Of a stretch of 64,000 nucleotides of DNA, positions 57,506-62,749 are shown piece after piece. Both the position numbers and the translations under genes were made by a program. The stretch is from NCBI RefSeq assembly GCF_056712565.1, contig NZ_CM160072.1. One strand, given 5' to 3'. The notes under the pieces were generated by a model. The model was not told the origin of the DNA, ran no database searches, and was given only the letters and a program-made list of their open reading frames with translations. Numbering within the stretch: position 1 is the stretch's first letter; each line of letters begins with the position of its first letter.

Positions 57506-58153
<648 letters not shown>

Positions 58154-59195: not shown

Positions 59196-59547
59196 CCTTT
59201 CTCCCACAAATATCTAAACCTAAGTAAAGCGTGGAGTGTACTGGATATACCCAATGCTGGTTGAGCATTTGTTGAAAAAATTTTCCCCCGTTTTGACTAA
59301 AATGCGCCAGGATTGATGGAATCATTAGTCTGGTGATTAGGAATAATCTGGATGAATGACAGGGAAAACATGCGTAATACTTACGCAGTTCTCTGAAAAA
59401 GTGATTTAAATTTAGATGGATAGCGGTGTATGGAAACGTTCTGTTACATGAAATGGTCCGTTAGACATCATAAATCGCGAAGAGTTTCCCATTAATTTTT
59501 GATATATTTAAAACTTAGGACTTATTTGAATCACATTTGAGGTGGTT

Positions 59548-61696: not shown

Positions 61697-61967
61697 ATGC
61701 CACTATCGTAACAAACGCCATGTGCTTACCCTGGCGTCAAGGGTCAATACCTGCAAGAGTGCGTGAAGAGGGGAAAGGGGTCCGCATCCGCGAGCCGCAA
61801 TATACGCAGGGCTGCAAGAAGATAGAGCGAGCTGCTGTTCAGGTCAACTACCGACGAACAAATCTTTTGCGAAGGGGATTGCAAATCCGACAAAAAGTGG
61901 GGTTTTTCAGACCAAAACGCGTTGTGCCTGCATAAAAGCAGGAGTGAAGCGGCGTACCGCGACGCCG

Positions 61968-62096
61968 CTATTTATCGGAAGGTTTATCCTGCTGCGGTTT
62001 GTTGTTGACCATATCGCACAACATAGAGAGCAGCATTAACCGTACTTTAAAGGGAGAATGACTAAACACGCGCATACACCTCTTGAACTCATTCAT
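61968..62096 (-). CDS. mntS: Small protein MntS (42 aa)
   Basis: Short ORF missed by the track: MNEFKRCMRVFSHSPFKVRLMLLSMLCDMVNNKPQQDKPSDK; followed by GC hairpin terminator. Confidence 0.8.
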   Translation of the reverse strand: MNEFKRCMRVFSHSPFKVRLMLLSMLCDMVNNKPQQDKPSDK

Positions 62097-62154
62097 AAGA
62101 CCTCCTGACTTGCTAATCCCATCGATCCTTGAGGGATGATTGCATTACATACAG

Positions 62155-62186
62155 ATATAGCACAGGCTATATTATATAGCTATTGC
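62155..62186. promoter_or_regulatory. Putative MntR operator in mntS promoter
   Basis: AT-rich dyads atatagcacaggctatat and atatagctat upstream of mntS. Confidence 0.4.
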
Positions 62187-62281
62187 TAAAACGTTAATTT
62201 TTTGTACCTTCGCAACTCTGGTTTACAATGTGCGCACGAAATGAGAACGCTATGTATGCGTCACCATAATGAGGAAGCACA

Positions 62282-62749
62282 ATGAGTCGTCGCGCAGGTA
62301 CGCCAACAGCAAAAAAAGTGACGCAGTTAGTGAACGTGGAAGAGCACGTTGAAGGGTTCCGCCAGGTCAGAGAGGCGCATCGGCGCGAGCTGATTGATGA
62401 TTACGTTGAGCTGATTTCTGACTTGATCAGGGAAGTGGGGGAAGCTCGTCAGGTGGACATGGCTGCTCGTCTGGGGGTTTCGCAACCGACGGTGGCTAAA
62501 ATGCTTAAGCGACTGGCAACCATGGGGCTGATTGAAATGATCCCCTGGCGTGGCGTGTTTTTAACGGCAGAAGGAGAGAAGCTGGCGCAGGAAAGCCGCG
62601 AGCGACATCAGATAGTCGAAAATTTCTTGTTGGTGTTGGGCGTCAGTCCGGAAATCGCCCGTCGCGACGCGGAAGGTATGGAGCACCATGTTAGTGAAGA
62701 GACGCTGGATGCCTTTCGTTTGTTTACCCAGAAACACGGTGCCAAATGA
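62282..62749 (+). CDS. mntR: Manganese-responsive regulator MntR (DtxR family)
   Basis: 155-aa ORF with DtxR-type HTH. Confidence 0.93.

What the first reader, a model, noticed from the sequence alone, without database searches (positions are those of the whole stretch)
61968..62096. Small protein genes fall below the ORF-track threshold (mntS, acrZ)
Two bona fide small-protein genes are invisible to the 60-aa track. mntS (42 aa, minus strand, with its own terminator and an upstream AT-rich dyad that may be an MntR operator) lies divergent to mntR, and acrZ (49 aa, 2949..3098) lies between modE and modA. Other intergenic gaps, such as 59196..59547 upstream of ompX and 45555..45818, may hold further short ORFs or sRNAs that I could not support from sequence alone.
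Basis: partly seen in the sequence, partly recalled or inferred. Interest (0 to 1): 0.3.

Follow-up and report, generated by a model that had tools for sequence, protein, structure and literature searches.

The report
Known E. coli small-protein genes mntS, acrZ

Summary
The window is E. coli chromosome, galE to ldtB. The ORFs at 61968..62096 (-) and 2949..3098 (+) match the RefSeq and K-12 genes mntS and acrZ base for base, and their proteins are identical to K-12's. MntS hits NCBIfam small_MntS (6e-28). AcrZ hits Pfam AcrZ (6.5e-30) and the AcrZ chains of solved structures (4c48 and others).

Coding was tested directly. An intact MntS ORF follows the same operator in 116 of 118 untruncated species-level genomes, with median dN/dS about 0.10.

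The upstream dyad is an MntR box, ATAGC-N4-GCTAT. It occurs exactly twice in 64 kb (mntS and dps; 0.00 expected) and also upstream of mntH and mntP.

The "terminator" is a conserved 8-bp hairpin on the stop codon. Its U-tract is degraded in E. coli, which fits the published 205 to ~400 nt RybA transcripts.

Gap 45555..45818 shows nothing.

One less-trodden point: a conserved 5'UTR hairpin with an A-N-GGA loop, plus the Shine-Dalgarno GGA, coincides with a published but undiscussed CsrA CLIP-seq peak.

Verdict: already known, low interest.

The parts
61968..62096 (-). mntS coding sequence (42 aa plus stop): MNEFKRCMRVFSHSPFKVRLMLLSMLCDMVNNKPQQDKPSDK
   Evidence: ORF list; RefSeq and K-12 annotation; NCBIfam NF033226, 96 bits against a cutoff of 36; identical to K-12; median dN/dS about 0.10 over 108 distinct sequences.
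62101..62106 (-). Shine-Dalgarno AGGAGG, 4 nt before the ATG
   Evidence: Sequence; GGAG invariant in 102 enterobacterial 5'UTRs; second-best anti-SD duplex energy of 325 intergenic sORFs; the maximum of the published CsrA CLIP peak maps here.
62116..62137 (-). 5'UTR hairpin: stem AUCCCUC/GAUGGGAU, loop AAGGAUC (A-N-GGA)
   Evidence: RNAalifold on 7 genera. On 102 distinct 5'UTRs the 6-pair helix is 84.8% paired against 75.4% in shuffles (0/500), has 43 double-sided changes against 17.3 (0/500), and beats all slid registers.
62155..62172 (.). MntR box 1: perfect palindrome ATATAGC-N4-GCTATAT, overlapping the transcription start
   Evidence: same core upstream of mntH, mntP and dps; invariant across genera.
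62176..62189 (.). MntR box 2 (one mismatch): ATAGCTATTGCTAA, overlapping and lying upstream of the -10
   Evidence: lies in the conserved block.
62171..62176 (-). -10 hexamer TATAAT of the mntS/rybA promoter; the start at 62163 is taken from the K-12 rybA annotation
   Evidence: Sequence; the K-12 rybA 5' end at 853064 maps to 62163 with no indels.
61948..61969 (-). 3' stem-loop AGCGGCGU-CGCGGU-ACGCCGCU overlapping the stop codon; a leaky terminator or 3'-end element
   Evidence: The same hairpin is present in 90 of 113 species, mostly followed by TTCATTTTT. Other genera carry compensated or replaced hairpins at the same place. RybA is reported as a ProQ target.
61824..62163 (-). Extent of the annotated RybA/mntS transcript (K-12 b4416, 340 nt)
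   Evidence: K-12 annotation mapped through a gap-free alignment.
62282..62749 (+). mntR, the divergent repressor gene
   Evidence: Synteny ybiR-mntR<>mntS-opgE holds in all six other genera checked; ompX follows in five of them (Kluyvera differs).
2949..3098 (+). acrZ coding sequence (49 aa plus stop); GGAG Shine-Dalgarno at 2939..2942
   Evidence: Pfam PF10766, 102.9 bits against 26.2; full-length match (residues 1-49 of 49, E 1.7e-27) to the 49-residue AcrZ chain of 4c48, 5nc5, 6sgr and 6sgs and identical to K-12 AcrZ.
3105..3138 (+). acrZ intrinsic terminator: 9-bp stem followed by TCTTTTTCTC
59430..59495 (+). yliM (21 aa, METFCYMKWSVRHHKSRRVSH) in the rhtA-ompX gap
   Evidence: RefSeq and K-12 annotation. 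SPA-tag detection by VanOrsdel 2018. Listed as a candidate ompX uORF. The ORF is poorly conserved outside Escherichia and Salmonella.
45132..45191 (+). ybiE (19 aa), in the hcxB-ybiJ gap
   Evidence: Annotation; listed among western-blot-validated sORFs.
45064..45160 (-). ZbiJ small RNA (3' end of the ybiJ transcript), antisense to ybiE; terminator at 45093..45072
   Evidence: K-12 annotation; terminator scan.

Best explanation
These are two already-characterised E. coli small-protein genes.

mntS is transcribed as the RybA RNA from a sigma-70 promoter. The -10 hexamer and transcription start of that promoter are covered by two adjacent MntR boxes. When Mn2+ is plentiful, MntR-Mn2+ occupies the boxes and shuts the gene off. 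When Mn2+ is scarce, the 42-residue MntS is made from a strong Shine-Dalgarno site and raises cellular Mn by binding and inhibiting the exporter MntP. A GC-rich hairpin on the stop codon ends or stabilises the shortest transcript, and read-through gives longer ones.

acrZ is a separate monocistronic unit with its own Shine-Dalgarno site and canonical terminator. Its product is a single bent transmembrane helix that docks on AcrB and changes which drugs the pump exports.

Shown here: gene identity, family membership, purifying selection, synteny, operator sequence and conservation, the hairpins.
Taken from papers: MntR repression, MntP inhibition, AcrB binding.
Inferred: CsrA binds the 5'UTR hairpin loop and the Shine-Dalgarno GGA as an extra translational control.
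For: Identity and annotation. Families.

Coding selection: identity by codon position is 0.81/0.93/0.66 in 7 genera. Entropy by codon position is 0.51/0.25/0.87 and median dN/dS is 0.10 in 108 distinct sequences. An intact 40-44 aa ORF beginning MNE follows the operator in 114 of 120 genomes. Two more begin MSE, and two loci are cut by contig ends.

Operator: and the 0.93-identity block. The 22-nt operator and leader string occurs once per locus in at least 120 species-level genomes, nearly all Enterobacteriaceae.

Function: Martin 2015, PMC4361602; Wright 2023, bioRxiv 10.1101/2023.06.02.543501; Du 2020, PMC7267776.

acrZ terminator.

CsrA.
Against: None against the gene identifications. Smaller points follow.

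The local Pfam copy gave no hit for MntS, although the database's precomputed annotation lists PF26599 MntS.

The 3' hairpin is not a canonical terminator in E. coli, and its fold energy is not unusual for its composition (z = -0.93).

Its stems are invariant in most genera, so covariation support comes only from the divergent genera.

The paper that first showed MntR repression of mntS (Waters 2011) could not be read here.
Confidence: 0.97

Rival explanations
1. The locus acts as a regulatory small RNA (RybA) and the ORF is incidental, or the RNA has two functions.
For: It was first described as an sRNA. A 2012 study reports RybA effects on aromatic amino-acid genes under peroxide stress (cited). 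The RNA has conserved structured ends and is reported to bind ProQ and RhsFI.
Against: The ORF is under strong purifying selection with a 3-periodic substitution pattern. Martin 2015 attributes the Mn-sensitivity phenotype to the protein and finds it Hfq-independent. MntS is detected as a tagged protein in Salmonella. A second, RNA-level role is not excluded.
Confidence: 0.1
2. The short ORFs are chance ORFs in intergenic DNA.
For: ORFs of 20-50 aa are abundant by chance: 26 in 1.4 kb and 325 intergenic ORFs of 10-59 aa in the window. acrZ ranks only 25th and yliM 86th on Shine-Dalgarno strength.
Against: HMM E-values of 6e-28 and 6.5e-30, solved AcrB-AcrZ structures, dN/dS of 0.10, and conserved synteny. 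For yliM this rival is not fully excluded as far as a conserved protein function goes: the ORF's start, length and stop vary between genera while the DNA stays conserved.
Confidence: 0.01
3. The hairpin on the mntS stop codon is an RNA-stability or protein-binding element (for example for ProQ) and not a transcription terminator.
For: E. coli lacks the U-tract. Transcripts extend to about 400 nt. RybA is reported as a ProQ target with a 3' binding site.
Against: In most genera the stem is followed by TTCATTTTT, 6 T in 8, which looks like an intrinsic terminator. The shortest RybA species (about 205 nt) ends near the hairpin, which lies 195-216 nt from the start. The two roles are compatible.
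Confidence: 0.35

Closest known systems
MntS (RybA) of E. coli K-12, b4705/b4416; NCBIfam NF033226 small_MntS
   Same: Protein 42/42 identical. The locus is 99% identical with no indels, and has the same promoter, operator, Shine-Dalgarno site and hairpin.
   Different: Only six single-base differences over 491 nt. One is a synonymous CAG/CAA change and one lies in the 5'UTR hairpin.
AcrZ (YbhT) of E. coli K-12, b0762; Pfam PF10766; PDB 4c48, 5nc5, 6sgr, 6sgs
   Same: Protein 49/49 identical, in the same position between modE and modA.
   Different: Nothing found.
MntR operators of mntH, mntP and dps
   Same: They share the palindromic core ATAGC-N4-GCTAT.
   Different: mntS carries two adjacent boxes directly over the -10 hexamer and the start site, and this is a repression target. 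At mntP the boxes lie far upstream, and by published work they activate.
CsrA-repressed leaders with two GGA sites (one in a hairpin loop, one in the Shine-Dalgarno site), such as glgC and cstA (from my own knowledge)
   Same: An A-N-GGA hairpin loop lies about 20 nt upstream of a GGA-containing Shine-Dalgarno site. An in vivo CsrA crosslink peak is centred on the Shine-Dalgarno site.
   Different: No effect of CsrA on MntS synthesis has been shown, and the CLIP paper's main text does not mention the peak.

Membership tests
MntS (NF033226 / PF26599) | Profile HMM score above the curated cutoff | tested here: met
   96 bits against 36, E 6.3e-28. The local Pfam copy returned nothing, but precomputed PF26599 is listed for all homologues.
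MntS (NF033226 / PF26599) | Conserved N-terminal core MNEFKRC..VF.HSPF.VRL and a length of about 40-44 aa | tested here: met
   18 invariant columns in 19 sequences from more than 10 genera. Lengths are 40-44 aa in 114 genomes.
MntS (NF033226 / PF26599) | Divergent from mntR, with an MntR box in the promoter | tested here: met
   Synteny in six further genera. Boxes at 62155..62172 and 62176..62189.
MntS (NF033226 / PF26599) | Mn/MntR-repressed expression and inhibition of MntP | not testable with these tools
   Taken from papers only.
AcrZ (PF10766) | Profile HMM score above the gathering cutoff | tested here: met
   102.9 bits against 26.2.
AcrZ (PF10766) | Single hydrophobic helix with Pro16, binding AcrB | tested here: met
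   The sequence has P at residue 16. It matches the 49-residue AcrZ chain of the AcrB-AcrZ structures over its full length (E 1.7e-27) and is identical to K-12 AcrZ.
AcrZ (PF10766) | Co-regulation with acrAB (MarA/Rob/SoxS) | not tested
   Stated. By eye I found no convincing marbox in 2860..2948.
Intrinsic (Rho-independent) terminator, for the mntS 3' hairpin | GC-rich stem-loop | tested here: met
   8 perfect pairs, -13.8 kcal/mol.
Intrinsic (Rho-independent) terminator, for the mntS 3' hairpin | U-tract immediately after the stem | tested here: not met
   The E. coli tail is TTCACTCC (3 T in 8) and the scan finds no terminator. The feature is met in most other genera (TTCATTTT).
CsrA binding site | GGA in a hairpin loop plus a second GGA at the Shine-Dalgarno site | tested here: met
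CsrA binding site | CsrA binding and a regulatory effect | not testable with these tools
   Binding in vivo is supported by a published CLIP peak (logFC 1.93, padj 5.8e-12). The effect on translation is unknown.

The most novel reading that the evidence does not exclude
CsrA directly controls MntS synthesis. It would bind a conserved 5'UTR hairpin whose loop carries A-N-GGA (62116..62137) and also the Shine-Dalgarno GGA (62101..62106). This would link manganese export control to the carbon-storage/Csr network. The binding is present in a published CLIP-seq table but was never followed up. The neighbouring yliM start codon and the 5' end of mntR also carry CsrA peaks.
Probability: 0.4. Interest if true: 0.3.

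Novelty: already known. Interest (0 to 1): 0.1.

Why it matters
As a method point, the finding is sound. A 60-aa ORF threshold hides four annotated protein genes in this 64-kb window: acrZ, mntS, yliM and ybiE. Shine-Dalgarno strength alone would recover only mntS (rank 2 of 325). Biologically nothing is new, because MntS and AcrZ are textbook examples of bacterial small proteins that regulate transporters. The one item a specialist might want to pursue is the conserved GGA hairpin in the mntS leader and its overlap with an unremarked CsrA crosslink peak.

Tried and rejected
1. The Rfam gathering scan of the whole window found only the Moco riboswitch (24841..24985) and a REP-derived naRNA4 match (45217..45287). 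Permissive scans of the mntS, ompX-upstream and ybiJ regions gave nothing credible; RybA has no Rfam hit.

2. The terminator scan at mntS found none. The hairpin's fold energy is not better than shuffles (z = -0.93), so the case for it rests on conservation.

3. The local Pfam scan of MntS gave no hit.

4. The PDB sequence search with MntS gave no hit.

5. Waters 2011 (PMC3194919) is not held. The biosensor paper shows the MntR sites only in a figure.

6. A first literature search for YliM was swamped by chemical names.

7. I looked by eye for a marbox upstream of acrZ and found no convincing match, and did not pursue it.

8. I considered an anti-Shine-Dalgarno role for the 5' strand of the leader hairpin. 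I rejected it because the CCUC is not conserved in Klebsiella or Kluyvera.

9. Gap 45555..45818 gave no support for any sORF or sRNA.

10. In my first ompX translation the frame was off by one. The upstream-region comparison is unaffected, because the window and the loci were extracted the same way.

Full report
**What the window is.** The two flagged stretches match 5,391 or more of 5,426 complete E. coli genomes, and several at 100%. The gene order is galE-modFE-acrZ-modABC ... dps-rhtA-ompX-opgE-mntS-mntR-ybiR-ldtB, which corresponds to K-12 at about 792-856 kb.

**Check of the observation.** The tool lists a 42-aa ATG ORF at 61968..62096 (-), and an ORF at 2943..3098 (+) whose annotated ATG is at 2949, giving 49 aa. 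Converting RefSeq locus coordinates gives exactly 61968..62096 for mntS and 2949..3098 for acrZ. Both proteins are identical to K-12 MntS and AcrZ.

An ORF of this size is not remarkable in itself. There are 26 ORFs of at least 20 aa in this 1.4-kb stretch and 325 intergenic ORFs of 10-59 aa in the window. The claim therefore has to rest on other evidence.

**Evidence that mntS is a gene.**
- MntS scores 96 bits against NCBIfam small_MntS, whose cutoff is 36.
- A protein search found 136 homologues named MntS in Escherichia, Citrobacter, Salmonella, Klebsiella, Enterobacter, Kosakonia, Kluyvera, Trabulsiella and Silvania. The N-terminal core is nearly invariant.
- In all six other genera checked the neighbourhood is ybiR-mntR<>mntS-opgE, and ompX follows in five of them.
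- A DNA alignment of the whole mntR-to-opgE interval shows identity by codon position of 0.81/0.93/0.66.
- Scanning one genome per species for the 22-nt operator and leader string gave at least 120 loci, nearly all Enterobacteriaceae. Of these, 114 carry an intact 40-44 aa ORF beginning MNE, two carry an MSE variant, and two are cut by contig ends.
- Over 108 distinct sequences the median dN/dS against the window is about 0.10. Third codon positions are invariant at only 1 of 33 codons, against 19 of 33 for second positions.
- The Shine-Dalgarno site AGGAGG (62101..62106) gives the second-best anti-SD pairing of all 325 intergenic sORFs.

**The operator.** The dyad is ATATAGC-ACAG-GCTATAT at 62155..62172.
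- The core ATAGC-N4-GCTAT occurs exactly only twice in 64 kb, against 0.00 expected. One copy is here; the other is at 58059..58072, about 50 nt upstream of the dps start codon.
- The same exact core lies upstream of mntH and of mntP in K-12.
- A one-mismatch second box adjoins it at 62176..62189.
- Together the boxes cover the -10 hexamer TATAAT (62171..62176) and the annotated RybA 5' end at 62163.
- This block (62143..62207) is 0.93 identical and 53/65 invariant across seven genera. That is more conserved than the coding sequence.
- That MntR-Mn represses mntS is taken from papers.

**The 3' end.** An 8-bp GC-rich hairpin (61948..61969) overlaps the stop codon.
- The terminator scan does not call it, because the E. 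coli tail is TTCACTCC.
- In 90 of 113 species the same hairpin is present, usually followed by TTCATTTTT.
- Pluralibacter has a compensated stem (GCGGCAU/AUGCCGC), and Buttiauxella has a different hairpin at the same place.
- Published northern blots show seven species from 205 to about 400 nt with a common 5' end.
- So the hairpin is a conserved 3' element, a leaky terminator at best in E. coli. RybA is also reported as a ProQ target.

**How the two proteins work (from papers).**
- MntS is made when Mn is scarce and raises cellular Mn. It binds and inhibits the exporter MntP, and it descends from the signal peptide of a SitA protein linked to MntR.
- AcrZ hits Pfam PF10766 and matches the full length of the AcrZ chains of AcrB-AcrZ structures. 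It binds the transmembrane domain of AcrB and changes resistance to a subset of drugs.
- acrZ has a GGAG Shine-Dalgarno site at 2939..2942 and a canonical terminator at 3105..3128 followed by a T-run.

**The other gaps.**
- The rhtA-ompX gap holds yliM (21 aa, 59430..59495). It is annotated in RefSeq and K-12, detected by epitope tagging, and listed as a possible ompX uORF.
- Across genera the yliM DNA is conserved, but the start, length and stop of the ORF are not, and several genera have no ORF at all. A conserved protein function is therefore doubtful.
- Gap 45555..45818 (ybiJ-ybiI) has no annotated feature, no Rfam match and no promoter or terminator match.

**The one less-trodden point.** The mntS leader contains a hairpin (62116..62137) whose loop reads A-N-GGA in nearly all of 102 distinct enterobacterial 5'UTRs.
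- The 6-pair helix is 84.8% paired against 75.4% in shuffles (0/500), has 43 double-sided changes against 17.3 (0/500), and beats all slid registers.
- A GGA hairpin loop followed by a GGA-containing Shine-Dalgarno site is the usual layout of a CsrA target (my own knowledge).
- Supplementary Data 1 of Potts et al. 2017 lists CsrA CLIP peak_81 on mntS at K-12 852943..853065, which is window 62042..62164. Its logFC is 1.93 and padj 5.8e-12, and its maximum falls inside the Shine-Dalgarno site.
- That paper's main text never mentions mntS, and I found no paper that discusses the link.
- Binding is therefore published as data. Its regulatory meaning is untested.

**Verdict.** Everything central to it is already known.

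Noticed in passing
window 62042..62164 (-): A published CsrA CLIP-seq peak (Potts 2017, Suppl. Data 1, peak_81) covers the mntS 5'UTR and has its maximum in the Shine-Dalgarno site. It coincides with a conserved hairpin whose loop is A-N-GGA (62116..62137). I found no paper that discusses it.
   Followed up: partly
window ~59372..59476 (+): CsrA CLIP peak_80 in the ompX 5'UTR has its maximum 1 nt before the yliM AUG (AUGGAA). peak_82 lies on the 5' end of mntR.
   Followed up: no
window 49029..50480: fiu is interrupted by IS4 (49042..50467, 1426 bp), with a 13-bp target duplication ACCCACGCCGGGG. The transposase hits Nterm_IS4 and DDE_Tnp_1. The same junction occurs in 30 of 5,426 complete E. 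coli genomes.
   Followed up: yes
window 58059..58072: A second exact MntR-box core (ATAGCACCAGCTAT) lies about 50 nt upstream of the dps start codon. From my own knowledge, this is consistent with the reported MntR control of dps.
   Followed up: partly
window 59430..59495 (+), compared with L015-L134: The yliM DNA is well conserved across Enterobacteriaceae, but the ORF is not: the start shifts, products range from 12 to 40 aa, and several genera have no ORF. The conserved signal looks regulatory, not protein-coding.
   Followed up: partly
window 61819..61847 (-) and 61729..61743 (-): The opgE leader has a promoter-like TTGACC-17-TATCTT and a short element CCCTTGACGCCAGGG followed by CACATGGCG. 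All are conserved in seven genera. A tiny ORF starting at that ATG varies from 4 to 20 aa.
   Followed up: no
window 45064..45293: The hcxB-ybiJ gap is densely packed. It holds the ZbiJ sRNA with its terminator (45093..45072), the antisense 19-aa ybiE, and REP elements that match Rfam naRNA4 (45217..45287).
   Followed up: partly
window 40396..40593 (-): In the identical-sequence RefSeq genome this stretch is annotated as a truncated ybiA (NADAR-domain) pseudogene missing its N-terminus. K-12 has an intact 160-aa ybiA here.
   Followed up: no
window 24591..24695 (-): This is the best unannotated sORF by Shine-Dalgarno strength: GTG start, 34 aa, SD GGGAGG, ending 15 nt upstream of yvcK. It has no other support and was not checked for conservation.
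   Followed up: no
L100 (Erwinia sp. MAG) and L114 (Affinibrenneria salicis): The same 22-nt operator and leader string occurs outside Enterobacteriaceae. In the Erwinia MAG it precedes a divergent 33-aa MntS-like ORF (MKKPLLLQLLCRSPFTLRLLLLETLVTGKKTCR) with a strong terminator. In Affinibrenneria no MntS ORF follows it.
   Followed up: no
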